Source of the DNA: Octopus vulgaris
Lineage: Eukaryota
Assembly (NCBI GenBank): GCA_951406725.2
Contig: OX597824.1
Location: forward strand, 19,716,001 to 19,780,000
Direction of reading: 5' to 3'
Length of the DNA: 64,000 bases
A model generated the notes under the pieces. It saw nothing but the letters and a program-made list of their open reading frames with translations, made no database searches and had not been told where the DNA came from. Positions 15,200 through 43,723 of the stretch are shown here, piece after piece (position 1 is the stretch's first letter; the number at the start of each line of letters is the position of its first letter). The position numbers and the translations under genes are program-made.

Positions 15200-15417
15200 G
15201 TCAAGAGGTAGAGTGAGTGACCTTCGGTGAACCGTAGTGGCCAGACAGTTCGTGACCTGGGACTAGAGAGAAGAAAGGAGTGCGAGCCGCACAGCAGGTG
15301 CTCGGGGGGAAAAGTTTCCCATGATTCAGCAGACACCGCGGCCATCTTACTTGTTATTCTTTGTCCAGATGTAAAGCCGTCGTCCGGATCGAGATATTTT
15401 AGAAGCTGTCTGGCAAC
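15200..15417 (+). promoter_or_regulatory. GC-rich 5' leader region with YY1-type motif, TGACCT half-sites and a candidate splice acceptor
   Basis: GCGGCCATCTT (reverse AAGATGGCCGC) at ~15338-15348; TGACCT at ~15228 and ~15253; pyrimidine tract plus CAG ending at 15368. Confidence 0.45.
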
Positions 15418-15469
15418 ATGTCTCGGAGGAAACAGGGCAAACCACAGCAAAGGAAAACCATTGACTCAT
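15418..15469 (+). CDS. BCL11: First coding exon of a BCL11-like (CTIP/Chronophage) C2H2 zinc-finger repressor; encodes the N-terminal NuRD-binding motif MSRRKQGKPQQRKTIDS
   Basis: ATG in GGCAACATG context; in-frame TAG at 15400-15402 upstream; 17 codons + 1 nt followed by GTAAGT (15470-15475). The first 10 aa are identical to BCL11A MSRRKQGKPQ (SALL has A and FOG has S at position 7). A short phase-1 first exon matches vertebrate BCL11 structure. A spalt/SALL or FOG identity cannot be fully excluded from 17 aa. Confidence 0.8.
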
Positions 15470-17137
15470 GTAAGTACCTGTTGTCGCTAGTACTATTATA
15501 TTCTTGGGCACTGTCTTGTCCGAATATTCTTACATCTCTCTCTGTTTCTCTCCTTTTTTTCTTTTTTCTATCTTTCCATCTCTCTCTCTATCCCTGCCTT
15601 TTTTTCCTTTTTAATGTACATAAATGTGTTTTCCCAATATTGTTATTCAATGTCGATGCTACATCACCCTCCTGTATTATTGTACATTACATATTAGTCG
15701 ACACTTTCGCGTCGTTCCTTCTGATCCTACATAGATCTCCACTTGCGTGTGTGTGACCGCCACCTCCCTCTGGTCAGAGAAGGGTGGACGGCAACTATGG
15801 CCACACTATGTTAGCTTCACAACTGCAACTGTTACAGCATACGAAGCACATGCATGCACACACACACATACACAATCTTTATTTCTCTCTCTCTCCTTTT
15901 CGTTTATATACACACATCTTTCTTAATTTCTTTCTCTCTCTCACCCCCATTCACATATTACTCTATCTAATTCCTTTCCCACCCTCATTCACATATATAC
16001 ATATATACACTTACAAATTACTCGTTCACACACATCGAGTTTTATTTCTCTCTCATTCATACACACACACACACACTTACACACGTATATATATACATTT
16101 ATAATTCTTGTTCTCTTTTACTCTTTCCATCACATAATCACCACACATCGGTCTTACTCTATCACTCTTTCCATACATACACTTGTCTTTTTTTTTCCTC
16201 TTTTCTTCACATAAACATATATTTCTGCTTCATTACTCTTCCCTCGCATTTACAAATATATTTACACATATATTTACATATATATTTCTCTGTGAATTTT
16301 GTCTCTCGTTCTCTGTTTCACTCTATCTTCCACTTTATATATACACGCACACGCATCTATTTTGGTATATATATATATTTTCTGCTTCTCTCTCATTCAT
16401 TAAACACACGCTTGTACATTAATGAAATACTATTTACGATCGTTAATGAGAGAAAAAAACAACACTACACACATAATATATATGTATGTTTTACATGAAT
16501 TCATGTACTTAAAACTGTATAAACAAATGTTATTAGATGGTGAAGTGTATATTGTTTGTAAGACACAGAACCATGTGAGATATATAACCCAATAGTGCTG
16601 TCTTTCTACACACTCCTCTATTTCTGCTTTGTTACTTAAAATAGAAGGGTAAATATATTACTACTACTAATACTTCTGATCGTCATGTTAGGGGGGAAAC
16701 CATGCTGTACTCCCCCCGATGTACATAAATGAAAAGTCCAATCTCTATAACATTACGTGTTTTGTTGTTATACACACACAATGTATATTATATGAGCAAT
16801 GTGCGTGTGTGTGTGTGTGTACTGTCGTAACATAGCATTTTTCCTGACTCCCTAATATAACATTTTTCAAAATATATTTCTCATCTACTCAGGCCTAACC
16901 CTTATCCCTCTGTGTTACCATTATTTATATTCCGATCCCTCTTCATATTGCCTATGTGAGTGTATATACATATATATATAACATATAAATTATTTACATA
17001 GTTATATGTAAATTATGTTTTGTGTATATTTTCTGTGGTTAAGTCTCGTGTGTTGTTGGTTCGTCTCTGCTTTTTTATTACACTCCAACCTCAACTTCAC
17101 AAATTTTTTAAATCTATTATTCAACTATTCTTCTAGT

Positions 17138-17178
<41 letters not shown>

Positions 17179-20100
17179 ATGTCCTAGTTTAGCCCCTCCC
17201 CCGCATGCTGTATAATTCTTTATTCACTGGTCCTGCACTGTATATATATATATTATACATACATACACACACACACACACACAACACATACATATACATG
17301 CGTTACTGTCAAGTGTGTGAAACATTCGACATGGACTAAATTGTATTTCAACCAAACTGGATCATGTTTTAATGGTCTTTTGTAATCGTTTGGTCACTTA
17401 ATTCACACACACACATCATTTATATATTCTCTCACACCCTCGTTGTAATGTCTACTCTCTTCTCTGACAAATATATATATATATATATATAATATGGTTT
17501 TGTTAAAACACCACCTTTCTCTTTTTTCCCTCCTCTATACTTCTCTGTCTCTCTCCTTTTCTGACACACACTCACATAACCATCAGAGATCCACACACAT
17601 ACACACAAACACAACCCTACAACTAAATCCACACACTCTCTGTCTGGCGCTGCTAGGCATCGCACGTGGTCTTTAAGTATTTCTAGTAACGAGGTTAAAA
17701 TTTAATATTATCCCTCAACTACCGTTTTCCATTTATAGACATTAGGTGCCTTGGAAATACCCTCTGTATTTTTTTTTACAAGCTTTTTTTTTTTAAATAA
17801 TATTTCTTTTCTTTCTTTCCCATTTTCTGTTACCGAAATTGTTACTTTTTATTTTCACACACACACACTCTCTCTCTCTCTCTCTCTATCTTTACAATAA
17901 TATCGGAGCAAATTCATGTTTTTGTAGGCCTCATTTTTTTATCATTTTCCCCTGTTATTCAATATAGTTCTCCTTTTGTTGGGTGGAACTCACATATATA
18001 CAGAAAGGAAAGCATCATCGCCCCCCACGAAAAGAGAAAAAAAAAAGATCATCTCTTTTACTCTTATTCCATACACGTTTGTGAAGACTAATTTTTTCTT
18101 TAAAAAAAAAAAGACAAAAAAATGTATTCAAAACTTGGTGCTTTTTCTGGCATCGAGGTGGACTCCAATGTATCTTCTTCTACTTATTCTTGATAATGAT
18201 GCTGTTGTGTGTGTTTTACGGTTGTAAATTCCATTCTAACGCTCTAAAAAAAAATGGTCTCATTAAAAAACTAACAATCAAAAAAAAAAAAATGCTAAAA
18301 CAGACCACATTGCAGGTTTGTCTTCTGTATACTCCGAGTAACTGTGATTCTAAATGTCTCTTTATTATGGAACCAAATTGAAAAAAAGAAAATTACTAAA
18401 GCTGTTGTTATTATTATTTATTCTGCTTATTTCATTTCATTTCATCTCTCTCTTCATTGTTCATGTTTTTTTGCGTAAATGCTAACCAAAAAAATAATAA
18501 TAATAATAAAGACCCAAAGAATCGTCTTTTTTTTCGTAAGCGCTGGTATTTCTAACTATGTAAATAGTAGTCTTAATAATTACAGAATAATTTTTGCCAT
18601 CTGTAAATGTTTTAAGAGAGAAAAGAGAAAGAGATTTCTCTTGGAGAGGAAGTCAGGGTTTTTTTTCTTTTTTGGTGTCTCGCTTCTCGTTTTTTAGTTC
18701 TTCGAATCGCTGATGTTGGCAGCTCTTTCTCTCACAAGCACAGAATACATTTTTTATTTATTTATTTGCCGATTCTACTAAAAAAATACATGAATGCAGC
18801 GAATTTCATTGTTCTGTAATTGTGATATCCTTTATAAACATCAGCTTTTTTTCTCTCTTTATTTATAAATATACTCTCACACGTGGGTGGGTGTATATAC
18901 ACGTTTTTAGTTTTTGAAATGGAATTCTTTACAAGGGGTTAGTTAGAACATTACTGTGTCTAAAGCATATTTTTTGCGTGTTTGTCTGTCTGTTTTGGTC
19001 TAGCAGTTCTTGAGAATTCTAATATAATGGTATAATATACCGTTTGTCTTGCTTCCTTCTGAATAGTTACCGTTTTATTTTCGGGGTCTAGCAGTTGGAA
19101 AATAAGATATTTTTAACGTTTATTCCCTTGGTCTTTGCAAACGGTAAATAAAAGTAAAGATTGGACTATAATTCCTCGCTTCGCATTAAACAAAAAAATC
19201 TATAACCCCTCATAACACGATTAACACATGCATTCGGCTTCATAGTTTTATTGTGTCGCAAATATTTGGTACCAGAACCTCCACGGAATCATCAGCTATT
19301 TTTTGTTTATTTTTGTAACTCCAAGAGAAAACATATTCAGCACTTCATACATCCTCTATGTGTGTGTGTGTAAAATACACATTTCTTAACTAACTGGACC
19401 CAAACTATTAGCCTTCTATTTATCTGAACATTTCGTGTCGATATAGTCTTGCGCTGTGTGAATGTATGTATAATAAATAAACACACGCACACTTTCACTC
19501 TGTGTGTGTGTAGTATATATATATATATATACCAATTAAGGACTGAACACGAAAAGTGGACAGTCAACATGCTAGATATAGACGTCAAATCGCCATTCTC
19601 CACAAAAGATTATGTTCTCAGATCTTATATATATAATCTATATATACACGCGCGCACCACATTGGAATATATATATATATTGAAAGCTATTAATCTCGAA
19701 TTCTTCAGTATTTTGGGGGTAGTTTTTCCTTTTAATTCTCTTCCTTGTCGCCTCTCTATCTCTCTCTCTTATATACACACATAAAGGCTCCTTCTTTGTA
19801 ACATTTCACAAGATAGAAGCGACGACGTATAACCCCTTTCTTTTCACATCAGGTATTTTTTTCGAGGGGGGAGGGTGTTGTTGCTGCTGTTGTTTTTGTT
19901 GTTGTTGTATGTCGTCACACCCTGCCCCCCATCGCCACCTTACTCCCACTTCGCCCCCCCGTGCGAAAAAAACCCCAAACCCTCCCTCCATCCCACTTTC
20001 TCTCTATCTATCTATCTATCTATCTCTCTCTCGCTCGCTCTCTACGTAATGTCTGTGTGTCTGCTGGCCTCCCCCCTTCTCGCTCTCTGATTATGTGTGT

Positions 20101-21529
20101 GTGTGTGTGGGGCAATGAGCTCATTTGTACAAGCTGGCTTTTACAGACACACATGCGTGTTGTATCATTTGTACGTACGACAAGGCTCAGAGACGATTTC
20201 ATTTCCATCTCTTGTCATACCTTCCACCAAAAAATTTACTTACACTTGTCTGTCCTAAACACACACACACACACATTCACACCCGCTCACACACTCCACA
20301 CATACATTTCTATTAAGATTAGAGGAGGGTGCGGGGACACGATCGCATGTTATCAATGCTTACGGCTAATCCTATTTGACCCAAAGTTCCCACACAAATT
20401 ATTTGTTATATATGCGTGTGTGTTAAGGGAATAGCCAAATATTTCTCCAAACTTTCTCCCCCTACCGTAATAGTTAACTTGTAACTTATTTTATGGACGT
20501 CAGAAAGATAAAAAAAAAACAAAACAAAACAAAGTTGACTGCGGTAGGATTCGAACTCTGAACGTAAAGAGCCCGAACCAAATACCGTACCACAAGGCCG
20601 TATAATAAAACTATACACTATCTGACATGCGATAGTCTCCGGCACCTTGCTAACGTGTGCGTGTGTGTTTATATATAAACCAGGGATGTGTATTTTATCA
20701 GAATTTACTTCTTGATGGTGAATTCTTGAAGTATTTTCTTTTATATTGAAAAGAGGGAGAAAACAATCGAAAGGAAATCGACCCCGCCTGTGGTTCGATC
20801 CTTCCGTTGGAAATCTTCAATGGTTAGTTATAAGCCCCCAGATAACTAATATTGGACACTACGGACATATAGATATATATATAACTAATAAAATTGGTTA
20901 GAATTTACTCTGCTCGTAGCATGTGTGTATAGGAAAATGTGTTCGTGGAATGAATAATTGCCGGTGACATGTGCGTGTGTGTGTGTGTGTGCTACTAATT
21001 CTTTCAAAAATATTTTAATCTCTTCATTCTGGCCTGGTTTGTTACTTATGAAGTGTGTGTGTGTGTTAAGATATTACTTCAGATGCGTGTGGATTTACTG
21101 TGAGGCGATGAGGAGGGCCCCTTGTGTGACACACACACACACACACACGTACATATATTTCACACAAGACCCCAACCAACTCACAGTAAAAATCTTACAC
21201 TAGTTTGTATGCATGAAATATGAAAGAAATCTTTGTATGTATGTGTGTATGGATGTATGTAAGTATGTGTATAATAATTGTGTCAATGTTTATGTGCGTG
21301 TGTGTGTGTGTGTATATTTATGTTGGGAAATATTTGCTTTTGTCTGTGGTCAATGTGTATGTTGAAAAGTGGGGGGGGGAAGGAGGTTGCTTTTTCTTTT
21401 TTCTTTCTTTCTTTATTGTTTCTCCCTACTTTGATATGATCTCTTTCACGTGGAGTCTCAACGTCGTGGCAGTAATAGTAGTATAGCCGCGATAATTGTG
21501 TGGTGGTGGTGGTGGTTGTCTTTCAAGTC

Positions 21530-21574
<45 letters not shown>

Positions 21575-21801
21575 AGATAGATATAGTTTTTCGCTGTTTG
21601 CCTACTGCTTGTTCGGTCGTTCGTTCCATTTACCTACTGTCCGTGAGATTCTCTCTCTCACTCTCACACACACACACAATTACATACATACATAGAGGCT
21701 TGCTTACATAGGCGAACGAACGGCCAGTACACACACACACACACATACACACCCACATAAAGACCCTCCCCTCTTTCCTTCGTCAATGCTTTGGTTCACC
21801 T

Positions 21802-21852
<51 letters not shown>

Positions 21853-22247
21853 GTGTGTTCTCTGTCACTCATATATCTGTGTGCGTGTGTCAGGCTTGCC
21901 TATCTCTCTCTCTCTCTCCCTCTATCTCTCTCTTCCTCCCTCTCTCCCGCGTTATTTTATACACTCTTGCCACCACCCCTCTTTCCTCCTTTCTTCTCGT
22001 GTCACACAACTGTGTTCGTGTGTTCGCGCCCGTATCGCGATCTCGGTAATGTCACTCCCCCTTTCTGTTGTTCCTTGTGTGTGTGCGCGCATATTTTTTT
22101 TTTTCCCGCGCGCATGTAAAATTTCATCAACTTCATGTGTTCAACACACACACACACACTGTATGTTGTTTCGTTGTTAGCAACTGCTAGTATACCATGA
22201 AAGGGGAGTTCGTTGTAAGACCTGAGCCCCTGTTGCTATAAGGTTCA

Positions 22248-22278
<31 letters not shown>

Positions 22279-22484
22279 TTGAGAGATATGTGTGTGATAC
22301 AGCTAAAACATATTAAGGGGATTCTTACAAAGATCACACACACACACACACACCCACACACATATATATATATATAACTGATATTTCTCAACGTTGGATA
22401 AAGAGATATGCTTGATTCTGGCGATATTTCAAATGCTCTGGGCATTTTCCTCTCCTGAAAATGCAATATATATATATATATATA

Positions 22485-22517
<33 letters not shown>

Positions 22518-24262
22518 CATTTATATATGTATATATATTATGATGCTGCTAACTACCATCAAGTGAGGCTGCCCATTTCAAAAAGTGGTCATTGCTTTAC
22601 GTACAGGCATCTATGTATGTGTATATATATGTGTGTGTGTGTCTATCTGAATTATATACGCACACCCACTCTCTCCTATGGAAGTATGCCATATCTGCTG
22701 AAAGCACCGTCCTTTCGCCATACTCCTCTCATGGAATTCTGCCATATTTCCGCCTCTAACACGAATCTCTGCTCTTTTTTTTTCTCTTTGTAGCACCGCC
22801 CTTATTCCTCCCCCCACCCACCATACTGCTCTCTCTCTCTCTCTCCCTCCCTCCTTCTCTCTCTCTCTCTCTCTCGAATGTGATCTAATGATCTTGGCAT
22901 GAATGACACACAATCTCATCCGTCCTTAGTCTTTTGTCTTTTTTACCCACTTTGAAATATTTTTCTCTTGAGCTTATTTTATATATATTTCTCGTAAAAA
23001 TACTAATATAAGACTGTATTCAGAAAAGAATAAGCTTATCCGTTTCTCCAGCTCTCATTCTCTCTTATTTGGTCAATTCCCCCCACCACCCCCCAAAAAA
23101 TTTTCGAACTCACATCTAAAAATTTAAGGTACGTCACACATGAAGGTCTACCCGAGTTCTCCTTTCGCCCTTATTCATTCATTCCAGAGTAAAGATTAAA
23201 TCACAACCTACCCTAGGTCCAAGATCCAATTTCTATTTTCTTCTGGAGAAGTTTTAACTGTACATGCTCTGTTTTTCTTTGGAAAAGAAGAAAAACGCAG
23301 AAGAAAAAACGCATCTTACACAGACCTTTAATAAAGTATAAACTGTCTCCTTGGTAGGGGCCCCCACAACGATGTTTTTGTATGATTTTGGTTGTTAACC
23401 CCGGATTAGCTTTGATCGAGAGGGCCCTTATGTCGATCGTGTGATCGATTGACCCACTGTATCTTCTTCTGCTTTTGAAACGTTAGTGTTTTTTTCATTG
23501 CGAGAAACTTAGCTGCTATTTTCAGCAAAATGTGGGACCGCTTAGAGCTTGCGATAAAAAGGAAATGTGAAATGAGGGCTCTTCCATGTGTGTGTGTGCG
23601 TGTGATAGCTGTTAATATCGATATTGACATAGGCGTATTTCAAAACATTATGTGAATACAACATGCTTATGGATCTCCATCGCTTTCGACGATCAGTTTT
23701 CCAGCTGATCGATCGACAGAACTACCTACGGTGCGTGGACATATGTATGTATGTATGTATGTATGTATGTGTGTGTGTTTAAGTAATTCAATATTTCACA
23801 CATGCACCCTTAATTTACTGGACAAAATCAGCAACAACACAATGTGGCTGGCTAGGTTGGTCCCTGTAAAATAAAAGAGACAAGTCTATCCGAATTGCAT
23901 AGGGCTTCCATACAGTTTCTATCTGCCCCCTACACAAAAAGTAATGGTAAATAAGTCACTTGACCAAAGATGTCACCTGATTGATGATACCTCAAGATTG
24001 TGAAGCCAGCCTCTTCACTAACCCACACCTGCATCCACGTTTTCACAGGTATGCACACACACATGCGTGCACATACATGTACACGCATGGCAAAAGTAAA
24101 TAGATTCCAGCCCCCTTTTTTTCGAAAGGTTAATTTCTAGAAACAAAATGTCGTGTGATACATCTAAACCCTTAAGTATTTAATAGACCTGCTTTGTGCA
24201 ATTTCCAATGATTTAACCCCTTTTTAGGACATTGTAATGATGGGCAGTGTCCGTGCAAATAA

Positions 24263-24670
24263 AAAAGCCATAATTAGGGGTGTCTTAATCCTTAAATCCT
24301 TAAAAATGTTTTAGCCCAAAGGCCGCAGCCATGCTGGGGCACCACCGCTGAAATTTACTATTTCTATTTACTTTCGATACACACTGTAAAGTGGTTGGCG
24401 TCAGGAAGGGCATCCAGTTGTAGAAACCAAAAGCCATAATTAGAGGTGTCTTAATCCTTTAAAATGTTTTAGCCCAAAGGCCGCGGCCATACTGGGGCAC
24501 CACCGCTGAAATTTACTATTTACTTCTATTTACTTTCGATACATACTGTAAAGTGGTTGGCGTCAGGAAGGGCATCCAGTTGTAGAAACCAAATCAAAAC
24601 AGACTGAAACCTGGTGCAGCACCTGTCAAACCGTCCAACCCATGCCAGCATGGAGAACTGACGTAGAAGG
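24263..24670 (+). repeat. ~165-bp tandem duplication running into a family C SINE (GTGGTTGGCGTCAGGAAGGGCATCCAG...CCCATGCCAGCATGG)
   Basis: AAAAGCCATAATTAG...TAGAAACCAA is present twice (~24263-24430 and ~24429-24593). Confidence 0.85.
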
Positions 24671-25144
24671 GTGATATATTTATTATACATAGTAATAAGG
24701 CATCTGTGCACGTGCATACTTTTATGTATGCCACTATACACACGTGTCTAAGATTGAGTATTGATGAAGAACATCAGAGAGTACAAATGCTGACTTGGTT
24801 GGGTTTGTTACCAGAGTTATATCCACCAAATATAAGGAGGAGGATCAGCTGTGTGCTGACTCGGAGTGGAAGCTGTGGCTTTCATTCGTTCGTTCATCGT
24901 TTTTCCCGTGGTGTTGCAGTAAGTGAAAAATAATGGGAATAAAATTATAAAATAGAGAAAGGAACTGGATCGCCAGCCATAGGCTTTATCAGAAAATGGA
25001 TACCATCTATGTCGTACAGTACTTATACTAAACACGGACAGACATACCCTGGATTCTCACGACGACTAAGGTTCGAAACATGACAGACTGTGCACATACA
25101 CACACACACAGACGTTAAATGATTATATGTATATGTGTGCGTTT

Positions 25145-25292
25145 GAGGTCGACTTTGCCTTTCATCCTTTCGGGGTCGATAAATAAAGTACCAGTTTTGC
25201 ACCGGGGCGGGGTCGATGTAATCGACTTAATCCCTTTGTCTGTCCTTGTTGTCCCCTCTATGTTTAGCCCCTTGTGGGTAGTAAAGAAATAG
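25145..25292 (+). mobile_element. SINE family B, 5'-truncated
   Basis: GAGGTCGACTTTGCCTTTCATCCTTTCGGGGTCGAT...GCCCCTTGTGGGTAGTAAAGAAATA shared with many copies in the window. Confidence 0.85.
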
Positions 25293-25294
25293 AT

Positions 25295-25326
<32 letters not shown>

Positions 25327-25475
25327 CATACAATTCTCTTTCTCTATATGGTTGTTAAATGCTAATGTGGGTATACAAATACACATACTCTCTTTACAAA
25401 AAAATGCTCACATTCTCTCTCTTTCTTTCTCTGTAAATACATTCATACAGACACACACTCACTCTCTCTCTATCT

Positions 25476-25511
<36 letters not shown>

Positions 25512-25675
25512 CTCTCACATTGCTGTATTAGATATAATCTGTTATATATATTTCTGATTGTGTTTATCAGGTCAGGTAGAACTTCTAAACCAATCGTTTC
25601 CTTTGTCAAGATAGCACACCGCTTTCAAAAGCTTTTCATGTCACAAACCTACACCCTGTTATCTAACACCACAAT

Positions 25676-25992
25676 CTCAAGTGGTCAGCTATGCCCTAAA
25701 CTCAACCTCAGCCAAGCTATGTCCCAGAACTTAACCTCAAGTGGTCAGCTATGCCCTAAACTCAACCTCAGCCAAGCTATGTCCCAGAACTTAACCTCAA
25801 GTGGTCAGCTATGCCCTAAACTCAACCTCAGCCAAGCTATGTCCCAGAACTTAACCTCAAGTGGTCAGCTATGCCCTAAACTCAACCTCAGCCAAGCTAT
25901 GTCCCAGAACTTAACCTCAAGTGGTCAGCTATGCCCTAAACTCAACCTCGGCCAAGCTATGTCCCAGAACTTAACCTCAAGTGGTCAGCTAT
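25676..25992 (+). repeat. 60-bp minisatellite, ~5.3 near-identical units
   Basis: GTGGTCAGCTATGCCCTAAACTCAACCTCAGCCAAGCTATGTCCCAGAACTTAACCTCAA x5 plus a partial unit; a single A>G in unit 5. Confidence 0.98.
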
Positions 25993-26261
25993 ATTCCATG
26001 TACCCTTTACATCACCGAAACGAACTGTAATTACTACATTCCGTAGCTTTTGTTTGTTTCTTTTCTTTTCTTTTTTTTTTTATCTGACCTGGAGTTCTGT
26101 CACTCTTTCAATCTTTAATCATGCTGGACTGACCGGTCAGCTGGCATCAATCTTCAGTATGTTGTGGTTTTGGTTTGCATGTATAATTAAAACAAATAAG
26201 CAATACAGGTTCGATCCTGACACACAGACTTACATTTTACTTAACATTATTAAAAGCCATT

Positions 26262-26403
26262 GGTGTGGCTGTGTGGTAAGAAGCTTGCCTCCCAACCACA
26301 TGGTTCCAGGTTCAGTTCCACCGTATGTACCTTAAACATGCATATTCTCCAATAGCCTCAGGCCAAACAAGGATTCAGTAGCAGAAACTGAAGGAAGCCC
26401 ATC

Positions 26404-26445
<42 letters not shown>

Positions 26446-27020
26446 TTTACGTGTTTCAGTCATATGACTGCGACCATGCTGGAGCACAGCCTTTAGTCGA
26501 GCAAATCGACCCCAGGACTTATTCTTTGTAAGCCTTGTACTTATTCTATCGATCACTTTTGCCACACCAACATCGGTTGTTAAACAATGGTGGGGGGGGA
26601 CAAACACAAACACACACACATATATATATAATATATGAGAGGCTTCTTTCAGTTTCTGTCTACCAAATCCATTCACAAGGCTTTGATCGGCCTGGGGCTA
26701 TAGTAGAAGACACTTGCCTAAGGTACCATGTGGTTGGTAAGCAACCTATGTACCACAGCTATCGGATAAATCTCAAAAATTAATATAATACCATGTACCC
26801 ATCATATTGTCACCCTATATGTGTGTATGTCTGTGTGTGTTTGTCCCCCACTGCTGGTGTTGCTGTGTCTACGTCTTTGTGACTTAGCAGTTCAGCAAAA
26901 AAAACCAACAGAATACATTCCAGGCTTAAAAGAAGTGAGTACTGGGGTCAACTTTTTCAATTGAAAATTCTTCAGGGCAGTGCCCCAGCTTGGCCGCAGT
27001 CTGACTGAAACAAGTAAAAT
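26262..27020. mobile_element. Nested family A SINEs: minus copy (26442-26760) inside a plus copy (head 26262-26405, tail 26815-27020)
   Basis: Head and tail of a plus-strand copy flank a reverse-complement copy that begins right after the internal (TA)n. Confidence 0.75.
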
Positions 27021-28269
27021 ATGTAAAAAAAAAAATTAAAGGTATGAATGAATGTCACTAATATTCATTCAGATTTTTCTTAGAACGTGGGGGGAAGACA
27101 GAGAACTGGTTTCTAACCCCAGCCCCAGGACCAGTAATGGTTCTGACAGAGGTAGAAAAGCAGTTTACAGCTTACTTTGGTGAGATTTGAGATAGAGAAA
27201 TGAAATTAAATAACTGTATTGTATTTAGTGAAATTTAGTTTCTGATATCTGCAATCTTAACTGTTGTTAAAAATCATAAATATTTTGTGTCTTAGATTGC
27301 CACCATGTTGAGGACAAAAGCTATGTACACACACACACACAGTTATTTAGACCCACACATCATGGTTGCAAAAATGGTGGTTTAGCAGATTCTGTAGAGT
27401 ATTGGAACCAAAATGTTACATGGTATTTTGGTTCCAATCCAGAGCATACAGTGATCAAATCCAACTTGGGTCGACTATGTCAGCTGTCCTTTTGAAATTA
27501 TGGTGCCGTGACATTCTAGGATTTAATACCAGCTGGGTTCTCTGAAGGTTGTTGGTTTGTTTACATCTATCTACAAAAAAAAAAAGAGAAAAAAAACAGA
27601 AAATTAAAGAAGAGAAATTTTACTTGGATATATTATTACAGATCCAGACATTATTAGATTTCCCATGTCTGCTGGAATGTTGATTTAAATTCCTTTGTGG
27701 ATTATGTTTTCATATCCTTCTTAAAATAACAAATTATCCCATGGGATTTTTATATATATATATATATAAGAACAGAATCGGTAGAGCATCAAACGATGTC
27801 TTTAGGGTATTTGATCATTCCGTAATATTTCAGAGTCCAAATTTGTTCTATGTCCATTTTCCGAAGTTACCGAAATAATTACTGAGATCAATGTGATAGA
27901 CTTATATTATATATACCTTAAGAATTACCTATGTATCGCTATACTCAAATGACTAGAAACAGTAAAAGACACATACACATGCATGCACACAGTATAAAAT
28001 TATTACATGTTTCATGTTTGAATGTATGTTTGATTAAATTTGGTGATAAATAAGCTTTCATTTTCTTAATATCGTGAATGAATAACCAAAACTCGTTTTC
28101 ATTTACACACACACACACACACACATGTTTATTTAGCTGATAAACTACAATAGTGACTCGAGCGATGAGAGATTTGTTTGTTGCACTTTTAAGCACAATA
28201 GTGAAACTGTTAGCCTCTGTGTAGTTTTACAACTAAATAGATATACGTATGTATAAATCTGCTTTGCAA

Positions 28270-28870
28270 CCCTGTGCTTTTGAGTTCAAGTCACGCTGTG
28301 GCACTCTGGGCAAGTGTCTTCTACCATAGCCCCAGGTCAGCCAGTGAGTGAATTTGATAGATGGAAACTGTGTGGAAACCCGTCGTGTGTATATTTGTCC
28401 CCCCCACCCGCCCACCATTTCACAGCCAGTACTGGTTTGTTTATATTACTGTAACTTAGCAGTTTGGCAAAAGAGATCAATAATATAAGTACTAGATTTC
28501 AGTATAAGTACTTGAGTTGTTTTATTCTCTCATCGCAGTGCCCCAGCGTGGCCACAGTCCAGTAAATGCAGCAAGTAATAGATAAATAACGCGTGTAGGC
28601 ATAGCTGTGTGGGTTCAGATGTTTTCTTCGCAGCCACAAGGTTTCCAGTTCAATCCCACTCTGTGGAATCTTAGGCGAGTGCTCGACACAACCAGTGCCT
28701 TTCTTTGTGGAATCTACCAGATGGAAACTGGATGAAACCTCGTCCTTCCCCGTGCCTATGTAATTTAAGTGCCTGACTGAAATGTGTGCAGGGTTAACAC
28801 GGTCCACTACAACCCTCGTTGGTGGTGCTCCAGCATGGCTACAGTCCAGTGACTGAAAGCAATCTATAAA
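28270..28870 (+). mobile_element. Two diverged tandem family A SINEs
   Basis: CTCTGGGCAAGTGTCTTCTAC...GTGCCCCAGCGTGGCCACAGTC, then a second head AGGCATAGCTGTGTGG...GGTGCTCCAGCATGGCTACAGTC. Confidence 0.7.
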
Positions 28871-29059
28871 ATTGTGCATTCCTCTATTTCTTCAAATCAT
28901 AGGATACTGTCTTTATTATAAACACACACGCACATCTAGATATGTATCTGTTTATTTAAGGACATATCCATTAAATCAATATTATATACATCAACTCAAT
29001 GATGGCCACATAAATTTGCTCATCCTGAATTTCCAGGTGTGTGTGTATATATGTTGGAT

Positions 29060-29232
29060 CTTTAGCCCCTACACGCAATTTTTTTCTCTCCTTGTTTCTT
29101 TTCTGTGTATCTTTCTGTCGAAGAGCGTAGGCTCGAAACGTAAAAGACTTGTATGAGCGCCATACTAATACATTGTTTGTTTGTACTCCACCTGCCTTCA
29201 TCTTTTGTTTATTTTCGTATACCTTCCCGTTA
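29060..29232 (+). mobile_element. Putative Penelope-like element terminal fragment with degenerate hammerhead-like motif (29110-29147)
   Basis: TCTTT-CTGTCGAA-GAGC-GTAG-GCTC-GAAAC-GTA-AAAGA; ends in a (TA)n run. Confidence 0.45.
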
Positions 29233-29429
29233 TATATATATATATATCACCATGACCGACCAGGCCATCAGATGTTGCTACACGTCACTGGTCACAATGC
29301 GCTTCGCACTGCCTTAGCCTTCAAATGACGCCACCCTGCAGGCTAAGCGAGCAGGCCAATATATATGTATATATATATATATATACATACATACACACAC
29401 ATCACAACACACTTGTCCCAACATCCCGT

Positions 29430-29650
29430 TTACTTTTGATAAATGTATTGCCTATGTATTCACATTGTTTTTGAATTAACCAAAAATTAACCACGCCTTG
29501 TCTTGGGGGGGCTTTAAGATTTCAATGATGTGATTGTATATTTTTAGAACGGCATTGTAGGGTCAACGCGAGACGCCAGATCTGGCCAGTTTGTACACCA
29601 AAACAGAATATTTGTGCCAGTTTTGGTCGGTTTAGAAACTAAAGGGTTAA
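29430..29650 (-). mobile_element. piggyBac-type MITE family 2, diverged copy
   Basis: Ends in CTAAAGGG-TTAA; reverse complement resembles 32982-33234. Confidence 0.6.
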
Positions 29651-30162
29651 AGTGTGTTTGTGTGTTTATTTGTATATTTTCTTAGAGTCCTCACCAAGTG
29701 CCCCTTGGATGTAGCTAAACAGAGCGTTTTAGTTTTCTCACAGCCCTTGACATTATGCCCAAACCCCCATTCAATGCCATTTTTGCCCTTAATTCCTTGG
29801 AGGGGAGCATGCATAGAATACAGCATGGGAATAACATGAATGCTTAAAAGTTCCATTTACTACATACCATTATTATTATTATTGTTATTATTTGTTTTTT
29901 CCTCTCATAACCGTTCAAGGGAAACCTTACATTTTGTAAGACAGTATGAGAATTCGTAATGACTAGAATTTAAGGAGTCCTATTTCTGTCTGCGGTGCCT
30001 TGGAGCCAATTGATGAAAAGATCATGTTCTCCATAGTAAGGACCCTGCCCGAAATGTTAGTCAGGTTTTTATCCTCATGGTATTGGTAGAAGTACCATAG
30101 CGCTCTCCCTCTTTACATATTATACAGATTATGTTACTGGCTGTATGTTGCATGCTTAATAC

Positions 30163-30194
<32 letters not shown>

Positions 30195-30259
30195 AAATAT
30201 GTATGTATCTGTCTATGAGTATATTATATTTCTGTATAGAATTGTGAATTTCTGTGTAT

Positions 30260-30303
<44 letters not shown>

Positions 30304-31931
30304 TTTGGCAGTATGTGTATGTTGAATGCTTACAAATATGCATATGTCTGTATATGAATATATATATATATATATTTCTGTGTGGAATTGTGTTTGTATA
30401 TTACTGGCAGTGTGTGTGTGTGTATATATGTATATATATATATAGACTGCTTATGTATGTCTGTCTGTGTGTATATATATATATTTCAATTTGGAAATGT
30501 GTGTGTATAATATATATATATAAAAGTGCGTGTGATTGTTTGTCTAGGTGAATGTGTGTGTATGTATGTATGTATGTATATATATATATATATTGACATA
30601 CATACACACATATTTTCATCACTTTATGTCCAATTTCCAGTGTCTAATATGGTATGTATGTATTTGTATGTCTAAAGGGAGTCGAGTAAATTAGGGTCTT
30701 TTGATGTCCGTGCCTTTCCTAAGGACATCAGAAAAGGCCCGTTCACTAATGATGTAAATTGTATATATCATAAATGTTACACGATTTAAATGGACAAGAC
30801 ACTACTAGTATATAATATGTATATTGATATATGTGTATGTATGTATATATATATATATATATGTAGTATTTATATAAAATTTACAATATATGTATTTATA
30901 AAATTATGTTTGATGTATATGCAATCATGTATAAATATATAAATACAATGTCTGTATAATATGTATCATTATATACATATTAATATAATGTGTAAATATA
31001 TACATACATTTAATCTATAAATGTAAAGATATCTAATGAATAAATGTACGTGTACATCAAATGTGGATCATATGTACGTATAATGGAAATCGTATTATAT
31101 AATCTATAAGTTCATGTGTATATCATGAACCTATGTATAATGTATATTTTGTGTTTGTATATTTATATATATATATATATATATATATGTCTATAGTGTG
31201 GGTTATAGATATATTTGATAGTTATGAAATGTAGATTTATATATATGATACATGGATACAAAATATAAATTGTGTATATGTGATGTTGATGTGTCAAAAT
31301 ATATATCTTGCACATGTGATGTATAAAATGTAAGTTTTAAATATATGATATAATTACATATATATACATACATACATATATTATCGTCATCATCATTATA
31401 TGTATGTATATATTACATATTATATGTATGTATATATTACATATTTTATGTATGTACATAGATAGATATATGTGTGTGTGTACATAATGTATATTTTATT
31501 TTTAAATGTATCATGAATTTTATGTGTGTATATATATATTTAATATGTATATATATATATATTTAATGTGTATATATATATCTATACAACACTAGTTTCA
31601 ATCATGTACTTAATGAACTTCTGGAGCTATTTCAGTTTACCATGGGGTATGTGTGTGTGTGTATATATATATACTCATATATACACAAACGCACACAATT
31701 ATTGGTCATTGCAGACCTGTAGTAGTAGTAGTAGTAGTAGTAGTAGAGAACCAATGTGCAGTTGGCTCAAACCTGGTGCCACATGTTTGGTTGCAGAGTT
31801 CTTTAACCAAACAGCAATAACCATAAATATATATATTATTGTGTGTATACACACACTCACAAACATTAATACATAATAATTATAGGGTTTGATATTTCAT
31901 AATATATCTTGCACATACTGTTAAACAAAGC

Positions 31932-31972
<41 letters not shown>

Positions 31973-32981
31973 TATATATACATACACACACACACCATAC
32001 TCTATTATATATATGTGTGTGTATATATATATATATGATGATTTATAAATTTTATATACTTTGTATGTATATGTATGTATTTTTGTGTTGTGTGTGTGTA
32101 GAATATATATGGTGTTGAGTGTATGTGTGTGTAGAATATATATGGTGTTGTGTGTATGTGTGTGTGTCTATATATATATATTTACGCTTTATCAACTACA
32201 AATATTTCCACATAATTGGTGTTTCTTTTTAGTTATTTGTTGTTTTGCCATACCTATGATCAAATACATTCATGTGTGTCCATCCTAGTTTTCCCATGCA
32301 TTATATATCTAGAGCTGTGTTATTTTGTGCGTTATTTTGAGCTGTGCGCGTACACCTAACACACACACACACGCGCATACTATAAGCATTTATTTATTTA
32401 AATTGGTATGTCTATTTATTTGACTGCAGACATGCATCAACGCTACTTTCATGGAATTTAGTCAACCACATCAACACCCCCATTAATGTGGAGTGCATTT
32501 TATCAGTTTTTATTTGTTGGACTGCTCAGTTACATAGTATATAATAAGACACATACATAGTGTACCTGTGGGTATACAATATATATGTAAATAAAACATG
32601 GTTGATTGCTGGACTCTGGGTTAAGATGCCCCAAATCAAGATTGATTTTAGAGCCATGTAGTTCTGGAGTAAACCTCTTGGCCATGTTGCTCATCTTTGC
32701 ACTTATTTTGTGATTGATTTAAAGAATAGAAATAGGACCCAGTTATTCATGATGTAATTTCAGTATTGATTGTTATAAAATTCCCACTATATATAACTGG
32801 TGTTCATTCTAAGTGACTTATTGTAGGTACAACACACACCTCAACATATCCCGCCTTATGTCCCTCTCTTCATTTTTCTCACACACACACGCACAGTGAT
32901 TTGTGCAAGTGTGTATGAAAACCCATTCAAGGACCCTTATTTAGTCATTCAGTTAGCTAAATATAACAGCTAAATCTCTTT

Positions 32982-33234
32982 TTAACCCTTTAGCATTTAA
33001 AACTGGCCATATCCAGCCAAAATATCTCGTCTGTTTTTTGGGTTTTTTTTTTTTGTTCAAACTGACCAGATCAAGGCTCTCATATTTACCCTTTAATGTT
33101 GTTTAATGTTATTCTACGTTAAATAATCACATCTTCGAAATCTCAAAGATATGAGATAATGCATGATTAATTCAAAGCTATGTGAATCAGTAAGGATTAC
33201 ATCGAATAGAATGAGCCGAACACTCAGGGCTTAA
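32982..33234 (+). mobile_element. piggyBac-type MITE family 2
   Basis: TTAA-CCCTTTAGCATT start and degenerate CTCAGGGC-TTAA end. Confidence 0.65.
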
Positions 33235-33394
33235 ACCACAACCATTATATTAAAAAGAATATGGAATGACACGTTGGACAATGTATTCTTGGAGCCAATG
33301 GGATGTGGTGGCTGTAATGCCTTTTGGTTATAAGTTCTCTCAACTATGACTGACTTGAAAGAATATAAATACTTTAATTCTTGTTTCTTCCCCA

Positions 33395-33782
33395 ATGTTA
33401 AGTTTTGAATTAAAATCTTCTACCAAACCTTAGTCACGATTTATGTTCCAAACACTAGCTTAACCCTTTCGTTACTGTATTTATTTTGAGATGCTCTGTG
33501 TGTTTCTTTCAATTACTTTAAATATAACAAAGAATTTAGTAAAATAAGTTAGTTATCATTCAGCTAGTGTTAGGAACATAGATTGTGACTAAGATTTATT
33601 GGAAGATTTTAATTCAAAACTTATGAAAACGAGACATTTGTACTCAGAGCCAGAGCCGGTTTCAGCCGGGTTGGTAACAAAAGGGTTACAACTAAGTTAT
33701 TTTACTAAATTCTTTGTTATATTTAAAGTAATTGAAAGAAACACAGAGCATCTCAAAATAAATACAGTAACGAAAGGGTTAA
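33395..33782. mobile_element. piggyBac-type MITE family 1: plus copy (33461-33690) nested in a minus copy
   Basis: TTAA-CCCTTTCGTTAC...GTAACAAAAGGG; flanks are the reverse complement of the same element ending GTAACGAAAGGG-TTAA. Confidence 0.85.
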
Positions 33783-33967
33783 ATCGGAAAGATATAAGAT
33801 AAGGTAAAAAAGAAAAGAAGCAAAAGTCCATAAAAGTTCTTTGGCCTTGGTGATGTTAATTTAATTCACTGGGTGCAGTTATTTACCAACACTGTTCAAG
33901 AACAAAATGCTAACTCAAAATCAGGTGTTTTACTAGAAATACATATGATGTGTGTGTGTGTGTGTGT

Positions 33968-34321
33968 GCATGGCAGTGGGGCGTAGGTAAGAAGTTTGTT
34001 TTCCAACTACATGGCTCAGGGTTCAGTCCAACTGCATAGCCCTTTCGGCAAATGTCTCCTACTATAGCCTCAGGCCGATCTATCGTTTGCCTATCTAAGT
34101 GTATGTGTTTGTGTCTTTGCGTTTGTCCTTCGTTACTATTTGACAACCGGTATTGGTGTGTTTACATCCCAGTAGCTTAGCAGTTCAGCAAAAGAGACCG
34201 ATGGAATAAGTACCAGACTTTAAAAAGAAGAAAGTACTAGGGTTGGTTTGTTTGACTAAACTCTTGACGGCAGTGCCCCAGCATGGCCACCGTCTTATGA
34301 CTGAAATGAATAAAGGATAAA

Positions 34322-34324
<3 letters not shown>
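33968..34324 (+). mobile_element. SINE family A
   Basis: tRNA-like head (GGTAAG...GGTTCAGTCC), body and CAGCATGGCCAC...TGACTGAAA tail. Confidence 0.8.
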
Positions 34325-34363
<39 letters not shown>

Positions 34364-35692
34364 CAGTTACCAAGTTTATAATGTGCCTGTGTGTTGCTGT
34401 TATTCATCCTCTAGAAACACTTTCAATCATAGGCTTTCTACCCATGACCCTCCTGTCTTTTACTACATCAGAGACCATTGCAGAGACCTATTTAAAATGT
34501 TAGTGTGACGGGGAGATTTGACTGCTGTTTCTAAGAGGCTGAACACCAGCACGGTGGTTGCAGGTTGATACGTGTGTATGCATGTATGTGTGTGTGTGTC
34601 ATTTGTATATATGTATATATATATGTGTGTGTGTGTGTGTATACATATAATTAGATAGTTGATGGTCGAATCCGTAGCACCAGACATGAGGTGGAATTCA
34701 GTTTTGTCCCTCTTATATTGTGAGTTCAAATCCCCTACCAGGTCGTTACTTTCTTTCGTGATTAATTTAAATATGGAACACAGACCACTTATAATAAAAT
34801 TGTTAAATATAATCATAGGTTGTCTTTGAATTTACAGTCTGTCTTGACATAGCTCATTAGTGTAAACTGATTGCTATATTACTTAACTGTTATTGTATAT
34901 AATTACTGAAAAAAAAATAATAATAATAAAAATCTATAAATTTATAGACCTAGCCAACTCTTGCAAACTTACTGTCAGCAGAACAATTATTGATATGAAA
35001 TGAATTTTAATTATTTTTCTTTAAATAATACAAGAAAAAAATTTTTAAAAACCCCAGCAGAAAAATTTTTTTTTTTTTGCTTTTTATATTTATTAAATAT
35101 GTAATTAAAACATTATTATTAATGTTAGAGTTAGAGGCAAGGAAACCAACCAACCAACCAACTACAGTGCCATATTGAATGTGTTTGTCATGTTTAGTTA
35201 TGTCCCTTTATATTATGGGTCCAAATTCAAAAACGGTGGTGGTGGTAGTGGTGGGGTCGTTATGGGTTGGTTGAAAAGTTGCAGCTATATTGTTGAGAAT
35301 CAATCCTGTCGGCTGCTATGCTCTTCCCTTTGTCAATTTTATCATGACACTGTAAGACATTCTGTATTAGCACCTACAATCTTTGCTGTGCCGACATCTT
35401 ACCATAAACCCTAACACGCGTTTAAAGAACACTACCGTTTTTTTTCCTTCATCTGTGTAAATTTTCCTTGTAGCATTCTCATTTTGGGGGTTTTTTTTTT
35501 AGCCAAATTTTTTCCGAAGCTTCTTTATTATTAATTACAGAAATCAATCTTTATTAATGAAAAATAAGAAGTGAGCAACGACAGAATCTAATGTCACACA
35601 AAAATGCCTCGCTTTATTCATTTACATTCTTTTACAATCAAATTTCAAAAACTTCGTCTTTTTTTTTATTTTTGGTGTTATCTTTTTATCAA

Positions 35693-36050
35693 ACTGTTTG
35701 TCATTAAACTGTGGCCATGCTGGGGCACAGCCTTGAAGAACTTTATAGTCAAATGAATCAAGCCAATTACCTGTTTTTGTTTTTTCTAATCTGTTTCTAG
35801 TTCTATCAGTCCCTTTAGTCAAACTGCTAAGTTACAGAGATGTAAACACACCAACACTGGTTGTCAAGCAATGGTAGGGGACACACACGTGCGCACACAC
35901 AAATACAGGCATACATACATGATGGGTTTCTTTCGGTTTCTCTTTGTGAAATCCACTCACCATATTACTGGAGATGCCATACAGTAGGACTGAACCCGAA
36001 ACCATGTGCTTGGGAAGCAAACTCTTTACCATGCAACCACCTCTTCGCCT
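35693..36050 (-). mobile_element. SINE family A, diverged
   Basis: Reverse complement of the family A tail, body and head. Confidence 0.75.
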
Positions 36051-36477
36051 GTCGATGAGATAAGAATTGGCGCAGAACTGGGGCTTGATATATTTGATGG
36101 TACCCTTTTCCTTCTCTCGGGGCCTTTGTATTTATTTGTTTTAGAAAAATCATTTTTATCTGAAGAGGGGTATGCACCTTTCCAGAAAGTTTGCTGAAAA
36201 AGGGAGCGAGAATAGCAACAATGGGCTTATATTCTGTGGATATTTCGGTAAAATGAAGAATACACCCAGGAGAGGACATTACCCTTCGTGATCCTGGTAA
36301 TTCTGTGTCTGTTGGTGTGGGGCAGGGTTCCTTGGTCAAACTCTGAACTAACCCCTTATAGGACATCTCATTTTAATACCTTAATATACTATCGTTTTCC
36401 TTCCACATCATTTCTAGTGTTCCCTCATCCATTGCCTTTCTGGCAAAAAAATACTACTCCTGTCTCATAACTATTTA

Positions 36478-39400: not shown

Positions 39401-40445
39401 GCCCTTGTGCCAAAATTTAAAATCATTTGTTGTTGTTATTATTTAGGGAACTTTTGCTATGAACAGGGTTTAACTAAATATGTAGTTTTTTTTTGGGGGT
39501 GGGGTGGGGGGTTGTATATAGATTTTCATGTTCAACAAGTCTTGGATAACTTTTGACTGATTCGTTTTTCTATCTCCTTTTTACTGAGTTGGGTACGAAG
39601 TACTTTTATAATTACCAGCTGTATGTATTAATTAGGTTTGTGTCATTGAATTAATATCAATTCAAGTAACATTTACGATGTCTCAATAAATAACTGTCCG
39701 GAACAATAAATTATTATTAGTGCTTTAGCCAAGTTGCTTCACTAATGGATGAAAACGGTTCATAACCACTACAAATTCATACACATACCATTTGATGTTG
39801 AATATACACTTGGGAAAGAATTAAGAGATTCTTACCAGGGATGTGTTTAATTTGGAACTAATAATAAGTATTTCCCGGGCAATGATAGATTGGTAAGACT
39901 TTGCCTCTCATCCTTTCGGGGTTGATAAATTAAGTATCAGTTTATGTACTGGGGGTCAATCTAATCAACTGGTCCCCTCCCCAAAAATTTCGGGCCTTGT
40001 GCCTAGAGTAGAAAGGAATAATAGATTGTCCAACACTCTAATAGTTTTACCAATGTGCAGTATTTCTTCCAGCTCATTGCGGTCTTGGTTCAAGTTTGGT
40101 CGAGGTTTACTTTACTTTTTGTTCCTCCAGGGTCGATTAAATAAAGTACCAGTCAAGTACAGAGATTTGATGGTTATCAACTTATCTTTCTCCTTCCAAA
40201 TTGCTGACCTTGTACCTAAATCAGCCTTGTTGTTTGGGTGGTGTATTAGCAGAATCATTAGCGTATCTGACGAAAGGCATTCCGAGTTCAAATCCCATGG
40301 AGGTCAACTTTGCATTTTGGGGTCGATAAAATGAAATCCTAATGAAGTACTTGACTCTGGTACTCCAATGCTTGACTGGAGGTGATGTAATCAATTTTAC
40401 CCTCCTTCTAAAAAAAGTGCTAACCCTGTGCCAAAATTTGAAACC
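36478..40445. mobile_element. Dense cluster of about 10 or more family B SINE copies (e.g. 36480-36700 +, 36895-37023 -, 37051-37270 +, 37280-37495 +, 38816-39030 +, 39043-39275 +, 39276-39420 +, 39895-40020 +)
   Basis: Repeated GAGCTGGCAGAA..GTTAGCA (A box-like), GAGTTCAAATTCC (B box-like) and GAGGTCGACTTTGCCTTTCATCC. Confidence 0.85.
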
Positions 40446-41550
40446 ATTATTATTATTATTATTATTTCTAACCTTATTTTACCACTGCACCCTAATAATA
40501 ATTGAAATAATTAGGTGGAAAGCAAATGATGATGGCAAAAGTGAATCTGATAGATTCTGTGATTTTGTTCTGAAGTGGCTTCTCTAAGTTTATACCAGTT
40601 ATATACTGAGGGTTAATTCGATCCATTACATCCTGCCTATCACAAACTTATCAGTGTTGTGTTTTATTGTTGTTTATAAAGAGAAAGAGTTTATAGAATT
40701 GGTGGAGCAGTGGATAGAAAGACATTATTTGTCATATACAGTTATTCCCCTTTGCATTTTGAGTTCAATTCCTGATGAAGCTGATTTTGCTTTTTATCTG
40801 CGTGGGCTTCATCAAAAAGAAAAAAAAGTACCATTCTTAGATACTGGGATTGATTTAATGAACTACACAGCTCTTCTTCTTGTTGTGCTTAAGTATGTTT
40901 GAATTGATTATGAGCTAAACGAGGCATGGATAATGTTTTTTCTGGGAATTAAATTAACCAGGGACTAAGCAACTATGATTAACAGAGTGGACTGTTTTAA
41001 ACATAGATGACCAATGCCACATTTACTACCAAGAAGAAAAAAAAATCTAAGGTAATCTTTTGTTAGGCTTTGCCATTAAGTTTCACACAGGCCACAGTTG
41101 ACCAGCCAGCCAGCTTGTGGCTGTGTTAAAACCCTTATGATTCGTGTTTATATTATAAACCATTGTTGACTTTTTAATAACATCCCTAGTTCTCTGGGTT
41201 ATATTAAAGAACCGCATTGTGGGTTTTTTTTTTAGCATTGGATGTCCATTGTCTGTTGGTAGAATTACCTGTTTAGTGTACTGGAATCAGTTTTGGAAAT
41301 TTTTTTTTTTTTACCAATTTCATAACAGGTTTCCAACCTGCTTTTAACATATTTTTGTCCTGGGTTAATTTAATCACCTCATAACCTACCCCCAACACCT
41401 GCTCTCTCACTCTACCACCACTGCTGTTGGTACACTACACCTAGCTATACCACTACCGCTACTACTACTACTACTATTTAAATCTATCTTGTGCATTGGT
41501 CATCTATATTTCAAGCAGTCCTCTCTATCAATCATAGTTTAGTCTTTGGT

Positions 41551-41923: not shown

Positions 41924-41949
41924 GGTACCAATCCAGCTTGAAACTAGTT

Positions 41950-42824: not shown

Positions 42825-42946
42825 ATATATTGTGTGTGCGCATGCTCGTTGAAATATCTGTATATATTTTTATGTATCACTAATCGACTTAAAACCCAGT
42901 CCTTCGAAATTGCTGGGCTTTTTCTAAAATTTGAAACTATTACGTA

Positions 42947-42985
<39 letters not shown>

Positions 42986-43536: not shown

Positions 43537-43571
<35 letters not shown>

Positions 43572-43632: not shown

Positions 43633-43723
<91 letters not shown>

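What the first reader, a model, noticed from the sequence alone, without database searches (positions are those of the whole stretch)
15418..15475. Isolated 52-nt exon carrying the NuRD-recruiting motif of a cephalopod-type BCL11/CTIP gene
Seen: ATG-MSRRKQGKPQQRKTIDS-T|GTAAGT, with an upstream in-frame stop and no further exon for at least 48 kb. Known: MSRRKQxxP binds RBBP4/NuRD in BCL11A/B, SALL and FOG, and vertebrate BCL11 also isolates it on a short phase-1 first exon; BCL11/Ctip and fly Chronophage control neuronal identity and timing. Inference: exon architecture is conserved. Such a tiny, remote exon is easily missed by gene predictors, so existing models may lack the repression motif.
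Basis: partly seen in the sequence, partly recalled or inferred. Interest (0 to 1): 0.7.

Follow-up and report, generated by a model that had tools for sequence, protein, structure and literature searches.

The report
Octopus BCL11 with recursive splice site
This is the already annotated first coding exon of the octopus BCL11 gene, whose peptide is predicted to recruit a gene-silencing complex; RNA from one sample also joins it to a site midway along its 270,000-base intron, which likely lets that intron be cut out in steps, as is known in flies and mammals.

Summary
In detail: ATG at 15418, 52 coding nt, phase-1 GTAAGT donor. RNA contigs from 4 of 4 runs splice 15469 to an exon 270,575 nt downstream that encodes the BCL11 CCHC finger. 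The three-exon, 803-aa model equals an existing O. vulgaris protein (CAI9729794.1), so the exon is known. 3 of 6 named octopod models in that cluster lack the motif. The exon is at least 265 nt long; only its coding part is 52 nt. The 52/55-nt phase-1 layout recurs in 7 of 7 BCL11-like loci from other animals. New: in 1 of 6 RNA runs a contig joins the same donor to a polypyrimidine-TAG|GTAAGTAT site 129,875 nt into the intron. That is the layout of a recursive splice site; 2 of 171 acceptor-like sites in the intron have it. The site lies in a ~470-bp cassette copied once more in this intron and nowhere else in the genome. Recursive use about 0.65; the main rival is an alternative last exon. 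The scan earlier noted a sea-urchin Bcl11 52-nt exon and an octopus ratchet-point candidate without RNA, both on other DNA.

The parts
15205..15417 (+). 5' leader of exon 1; true start further upstream, in or beyond a CT repeat
   Evidence: RNA contigs X1, X6, X8 cover 15205-15469
15321..15374 (+). 17-codon upstream ORF ending in ATG-TAA; contains GCCATCTT at 15341-15348
   Evidence: use in translation untested
15418..15469 (+). coding part of BCL11 exon 1: MSRRKQGKPQQRKTIDS plus 1 nt
15470..15477 (+). phase-1 donor GTAAGTAC, start of intron 1
15470..64000 (+). first 48.5 kb of the 270,575-nt intron 1 (G000:C11:19731470-20002044). The remaining parts lie beyond the window on C11, + strand: cassette copy 1 at 19861317-19861785 with TAG|GTAAGTAT at 19861345 (RP1; weaker donors at +185, +245, +322, AATAAA at +447); cassette copy 2 at 19964070-19964526 with RP2 at 19964098 (94% identical, no RNA junction seen); exon 2 at 20002045-20002455 (CCHC finger); coding exon 3 at 20043627-20045575 (six fingers, stop)

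Best explanation
This is the first coding exon of the octopus BCL11 gene, spliced across a 270,575-nt intron to the CCHC-finger exon; its MSRRKQGKP peptide is predicted to recruit NuRD through RBBP4/7, and in at least some transcripts the intron is likely removed in steps through an acceptor-donor site 130 kb in. Shown: exon1-exon2 junction in 4 runs; exon1-RP1 junction in one run; RP1 reads polypyrimidine tract, TAG, GTAAGTAT. Inferred: after step 1 the join CAT|GTAAGTAT rebuilds a donor (10 of 11 matches to the U1 target, against 9 for the native donor and at most 7 for donors further into the cassette). That donor would then be used to remove the remaining 141 kb, leaving no trace in the mRNA. 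Inferred: if a downstream donor were used instead, the included piece would bring a stop at codon 32 in this assembly's allele and likely send the RNA to decay. Confidence: BCL11 exon 0.98; NuRD binding 0.85; recursive use of RP1 0.65; RP1 as the main route 0.35.
For: Gene: PF25491 E 4.9e-15; PDB BCL11A 9bv0 and 9b4p; six fingers; model identical to P0122, 2 differences from P0002. Motif function in mammals: PMC8079813 passages. Recursive site: X6 loose end after 15476 maps once, at C11:19861352; on the RP1 locus the X6 contig starts exactly at the GT, L025:1345, while the DNA run X17 has depth on both sides of that point. This meets the junction criterion of PMC6110457 (passage). 2 of 171 sense acceptor-like sites are followed by GTAAGT, 0 of 83 antisense; any other acceptor used would have shown as a loose end at 15469. 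An X6 contig runs unbroken through the +245 and +322 donors (record 21). X7 has cover from +13.
Against: The junction is in 1 of 6 RNA runs laid (X1, X6, X8, X11 on exon 1; X6, X7, X5 on RP1) and in one contig. That contig has 30 letters on the exon side (23 exon, 7 shared with the native donor), one short of the tool's 31-letter rule; an overlapping 37-nt record extends it. X1 and X11 hold unspliced intron-start contigs but no RP1 junction. No donor with 7 or more U1 matches lies within 184 nt of RP1, whereas fly cryptic RS-exons are about 50 nt. Both cassette copies have an AATAAA near their end (+447, +477), as a last exon would. Genome-wide enrichment of the motif was not shown: 13 hits against 4 for a shuffled hexamer, backward controls 7 and 2. 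Sawtooth cover and second-step lariats could not be tested.
Confidence: 0.65

Rival explanations
1. RP1 opens an alternative last exon: exon 1 splices to a ~470-nt terminal exon polyadenylated at the AATAAA. This would cut BCL11 output or give a 31-residue peptide carrying only the NuRD motif (about 124 residues in the allele seen in X6 and X7).
For: Similarity between the two copies runs from the likely branch region to just past the AATAAA. No short RS-exon donor. Junction depth 20 against 193 for the normal junction in X6 (depth is a poor measure).
Against: A last exon has no need to start with a perfect donor; GTAAGTAT occurs 6 times in 270 kb. X6 contigs reach +499, 47 nt past the hexamer. 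AATAAA occurs 0.94 times per kb in this intron. X6 and X7 carry a base change that removes the stop, so the peptide end is not fixed.
Confidence: 0.22
2. The junction is rare splicing noise at a strong cryptic acceptor, or comes from a poison cassette exon, with no role in removing the intron.
For: One run, one contig. The cassette looks recently copied (94%, close to the differences between alleles and to organism D), and deep conservation is not shown.
Against: Noise would pick a GTAAGT-followed acceptor about 2 times in 171 (2 in 37 among the strongest). No contig break at the +245 or +322 donors in X6.
Confidence: 0.12
3. The exon belongs to a spalt- or FOG-type gene.
For: The motif is shared: 8 of 13 genomic pattern hits read MSRRKQxxP.
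Against: RNA joins it directly to the CCHC_BCL-11A exon, and the named top hits are BCL11.
Confidence: 0.01

Closest known systems
Octopus BCL11A-like proteins CAI9729794.1 (O. vulgaris) and XP_052827882.1 (O. bimaculoides)
   Same: 803 aa, start with MSRRKQGKPQ; 0 and 2 differences from the model built here
   Different: Nothing at protein level; protein records say nothing on how the intron is removed
Mammalian BCL11A/BCL11B (CTIP1/CTIP2)
   Same: N-terminal MSRRKQxxP, CCHC finger, six fingers. Fish-like loci have a 55-nt phase-1 coding exon 1. The BCL11B isoform pair ELITPEA/ELITQA fits a phase-1 tandem acceptor after residue 19 (inference from the codon table)
   Different: 52 coding nt here. 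One CCHC-bearing BCL11 locus found in this genome; a second PF25491 hit on C20 is a different sequence. I found no report of recursive splicing in mammalian BCL11 and did not search for one specifically
Drosophila intronic ratchet points with cryptic RS-exons (kuz, Bx, Ubx; PMC8605326, PMC6110457)
   Same: Acceptor fused to a strong donor inside a long intron, a junction from the upstream exon, a regenerated donor stronger than downstream donors, premature stop if included
   Different: No ~50-nt RS-exon donor; sawtooth and conservation not shown; the site sits in a locally duplicated cassette with AATAAA; host is a mollusc
Drosophila Chronophage (CG9650)
   Same: Six fingers, the sixth C2HC (PMC9482335 passage; here the last finger also ends in Cys)
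   Different: The RL isoform primer does not encode MSRRKQ; the deletion spanning the RL transcript is 46 kb; not among 539 recursive sites of PMC6110457

Membership tests
BCL11/CTIP | MSRRKQxxP at the initiator Met | tested here: met
   in-frame stop at 15400
BCL11/CTIP | N-terminal CCHC finger (PF25491) | tested here: met
   55.7 bits against cut-off 27; PDB BCL11A hits
BCL11/CTIP | Six C2H2-type fingers grouped 1+2+3 | tested here: met
   exon 3 translation
BCL11/CTIP | Best database relatives are named BCL11 | tested here: met
   (best 120 of 888 listed); no tree built
BCL11/CTIP | Binds RBBP4/7 and NuRD | not tested
   inferred from PMC8079813 passages; no complex prediction run, since a textbook pair would pass by likeness
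Spalt / FOG | Motif exon joined to spalt- or FOG-type fingers | tested here: not met
   junction leads to the BCL11 CCHC exon
Recursive splice site (ratchet point) | Acceptor directly followed by a donor inside a long intron | tested here: met
Recursive splice site (ratchet point) | RNA junction from the upstream exon's donor to the AG|GT | tested here: met
   one contig in 1 of 6 RNA runs; 30 letters on the exon side
Recursive splice site (ratchet point) | Cryptic RS-exon closed by a weaker downstream donor | tested here: inconclusive
   donors at +185, +245, +322, none near 50 nt
Recursive splice site (ratchet point) | Sawtooth cover in total or nascent RNA | not testable with these tools
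   only contigs were served
Recursive splice site (ratchet point) | Second step from the regenerated donor (lariat) | not testable with these tools
   no raw reads served
Recursive splice site (ratchet point) | Conserved across species | tested here: inconclusive
   DNA run X17 (organism D) covers the cassette at about 94-96% and has depth across the AG|GT, but 49 difference rows were not shown

The most novel reading that the evidence does not exclude
Octopus removes the 270-kb first intron of its neuronal regulator BCL11 mainly by recursive splicing, and ratchet points spread along the intron by copying a whole branch-acceptor-donor cassette. This would be the first RNA-supported recursive splice site in a mollusc, and a switch that decides whether the NuRD-recruiting exon reaches the DNA-binding exons.
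Probability: 0.3. Interest if true: 0.65.

Novelty: new member of a known kind. Interest (0 to 1): 0.42.

Why it matters
The exon as flagged is ordinary and already in current models; the practical point is that the O. sinensis RefSeq protein and some other mollusc models lack it. The recursive-type junction matters more. The papers read describe recursive splicing in flies and mammals, and the searches found no study of it in cephalopods or molluscs. A site with RNA support gives a direct test of whether a third lineage with long introns and a large brain uses the same solution. The duplicated cassette gives a used and an apparently unused copy to compare. bcl11a/b is expressed in most dopaminergic cell types of the octopus brain (PMC9712504 passage).

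Tried and rejected
No listed run is on record as RNA; X1, X5, X6, X7, X8 and X11 are 'RNA?' guesses, and the spliced junction shows RNA content in X1, X6, X8 and X11. Missing cover, not used as evidence either way: X6 has none just upstream of RP1 (L025:1249-1304) and almost none in the unique stretch at RP1+744 to +799 (depth 0.59), which would fit a last exon; X5 has none at RP1; the unspliced branch in X6 was not listed. The second laying used likeness 88 and SINEs flooded the tables, so loose ends and joints at RP1 were cut from view. A third AG|GTGAG site at C11:19792683 lies in a repeat and has 6 of 11 U1 matches: rejected. An X6 contig first read as coming from RP2 runs past the end of the duplication, so it is an RP1 allele; RP2 use is not shown. 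The cassette is not a dispersed repeat: 2 full copies; the other 38 of 40 hits cover its CT/T tract only. Genome-wide motif enrichment was inconclusive. 5' leader conservation: 1 of 4 leave-out profiles ranked the leader first, at E 0.74, so it is a lead only. Rfam gave 9 hits, all below gathering score and outside the exon. CG9650 was not found in the PMC6110457 supplements. Duff 2015 and Joseph 2018 are not held; their site tables could bear on whether the fly gene has ratchet points. One search was uninformative (25 of 7,138 listed, none with the term). No structure or complex prediction and no tree were run.

Full report
1. Observation. The sequence is as described: ATG at 15418, 52 coding nt, GTAAGT at 15470-15475, in-frame TAG at 15400. 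It is the only such motif in the window; chance expectation is 2.4e-5. The 113 stop-to-stop frames of 100 aa or more are largely microsatellite read-throughs by inspection. The window is G000:C11:19716001-19780000.

2. The gene. Contigs of X1, X6, X8 and X11 (4 of 4 runs, 4 studies) leave the genome at 15469 with the same loose end, and three of them cover 15205-15469, so the exon is at least 265 nt. The loose end maps once, to C11:20002045, behind a long T tract and CAG: intron 1 is 270,575 nt. Exon 2 (411 nt) carries PF25491 at E 4.9e-15 and matches two solved BCL11A fingers. Exon 3 starts 41,171 nt later and holds six fingers. Both introns are phase 1, and the joined frame is 803 aa without stops. 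It is identical to P0122 (CAI9729794.1, O. vulgaris) and differs at 2 residues from P0002 (XP_052827882.1, O. bimaculoides). The animal is therefore an Octopus and the gene is BCL11. The exon2-exon3 join rests on this identity, not on RNA laid here.

3. Do models miss the motif? In the octopod cluster 3 of 6 named entries have it (O. vulgaris, current O. bimaculoides, Argonauta). O. sinensis XP_029642734.2 (620 aa), XP_014773721.1 and A0A0L8HBE8 do not, nor does Sepia CAE1304128.1 in the neighbouring cluster. Among named invertebrate hits, 19 of 46 have it, and 9 of 20 molluscs. Vertebrate and unnamed rows were left out of these counts, and the set includes partial models and insects that may truly lack the motif. 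The brain atlas PMC9712504 (passages) mapped to the O. sinensis assembly and reports bcl11a/b in most dopaminergic types.

4. Exon architecture. A degenerate scan of metagenome contigs gave 17 loci, about 13 distinct. 14 of 17 have a GT[AG]AG donor 30-120 nt after the ATG, all phase 1. The 7 loci with at least 13 of 17 residues identical to BCL11 N-termini in hand have it at 52 nt (L073 bivalve-like; L076, L080, L082 mite-like) or 55 nt (L075, L079, L081 vertebrate-type). The taxon labels are inferred from peptide likeness, and the BCL11A name for L075 and L079 is recalled. In this genome 8 of 13 pattern hits read MSRRKQxxP, and 6 of the 8 have a phase-1 donor at 40-70 nt, so the layout is shared by several genes with this motif. 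NuRD recruitment is inferred from mammalian data, in which the motif is required in vivo and R3S breaks it (PMC8079813, passages).

5. The unexpected junction. X6 has a second loose end after 15476, that is, after the GTAAGTA that follows the exon. It maps once, to C11:19861352. The genome there reads a 90% pyrimidine tract, TAG, then GTAAGTATCC. So the contig is exon 1 joined to an acceptor whose next letters are themselves a donor (RP1, 129,875 nt into the intron). On the RP1 locus the same 176-nt contig starts exactly at the GT; further X6 contigs run to +499, one of them unbroken through the +245 and +322 donors. X7 has cover from +13 without the junction, X5 shows none there, and DNA run X17 has depth on both sides. 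Of 171 acceptor-like sites on the sense strand of the intron 2 are followed by GTAAGT, of 83 antisense none. The rebuilt donor matches the U1 target at 10 of 11 positions, the native donor at 9, downstream donors at 7 or fewer (the target consensus is recalled). By the donor-competition model of PMC8605326 (passages) this predicts skipping. Inclusion would place a stop at codon 32 in this assembly; X6 and X7 carry an allele that leaves the frame open for about 124 codons.

6. The duplicate. The second GTAAGT site (RP2, C11:19964098) is a 94% copy over 469 bp, starting 28 nt before the AG|GT. By eye the likeness extends over the TAATGA branch region and, across a microsatellite, to just past an AATAAA. 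The core motif occurs twice in the genome and the cassette has two full copies. The sites cut the intron into 129,875, 102,753 and 37,947 nt. No exon1-RP2 junction was seen.

7. Against. X1 and X11 show unspliced intron starts without it. There is no short RS-exon, an AATAAA closes both copies, and the motif shows no proven genome-wide excess (13 against 4 hits; backward controls 7 and 2). Sawtooth, lariats and deep conservation are untested. I put recursive use at 0.65, an alternative last exon at 0.22 and noise at 0.12.

8. Comparison and novelty. It is a BCL11 member on all four sequence features tested. RP1 works like a fly ratchet point and meets the junction criterion of PMC6110457 (passages), but not yet its high-confidence sawtooth criterion. 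Searches: 'recursive splicing' + 'octopus' gave 0 papers; 'recursive splic' + 'cephalopod' gave 1, with both terms only in its reference list; 'recursive splic' + 'mollus' gave 2 listings with one mention each, not opened. The library lacks most subscription papers. Other papers seen as passages only: PMC9482335, PMC13324515, PMC10735318 (no BCL11 in the main text, supplement not read), PMC2781166, PMC5126111. PMC6110457 supplements were searched by term. Duff 2015 and Joseph 2018 were not available.

9. Verdict. The flagged exon is real, conserved and already annotated; alone it would score about 0.15. The RNA-supported recursive-type site in its intron, in a locally duplicated cassette, is a new member of a known kind with thin but direct evidence. 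Interest 0.42.

Noticed in passing
window 15321-15400; L073, L078, L079, L075: The 5' leader shares GCCATYTT (a YY1-like motif, name recalled) and nearby blocks with 3 of 8 candidate orthologue leaders and 0 of 14 other leaders; local alignment p 0.043, 0.030 and <0.004 among 22 comparisons. An ATG-stop lies at -49 here, -36 and -37 in two fish-like loci, -94 in L078, but also at -94 in the control L006. The motif was picked after looking, and leave-out profiles were weak. Possible ancient leader element.
   Followed up: partly
L002, L004, L006, L007, L008: Five more octopus loci start with MSRRKQxxP followed by a phase-1 donor at 40 nt (four) or 70 nt (one); likely the other NuRD-motif genes, identities not tested.
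   Followed up: partly
L087 (G000:C20:40305905-40305988): Second PF25491 CCHC finger in the genome, on a short exon of another gene.
   Followed up: no
G000, 13 places listed: Strict T-tract-YAG|GTAAGT sites, candidates for further ratchet points; gene context not checked.
   Followed up: no
window 10001-14000: The + strand is purine-rich upstream of exon 1 (pyrimidine share 0.28-0.32 in two 1-kb bins) and pyrimidine-rich downstream, with a GC-skew flip near 14 kb; could mark a divergent transcript.
   Followed up: no
window 25676-25992: 60-nt tandem repeat, 5.3 copies, 99% matches, inside intron 1.
   Followed up: no
P0066, P0088, P0090, P0104, P0109: The 5 named insect hits lack MSRRKQ while many chelicerate hits have it, which hints at loss or replacement in insects; incomplete models are not excluded.
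   Followed up: no
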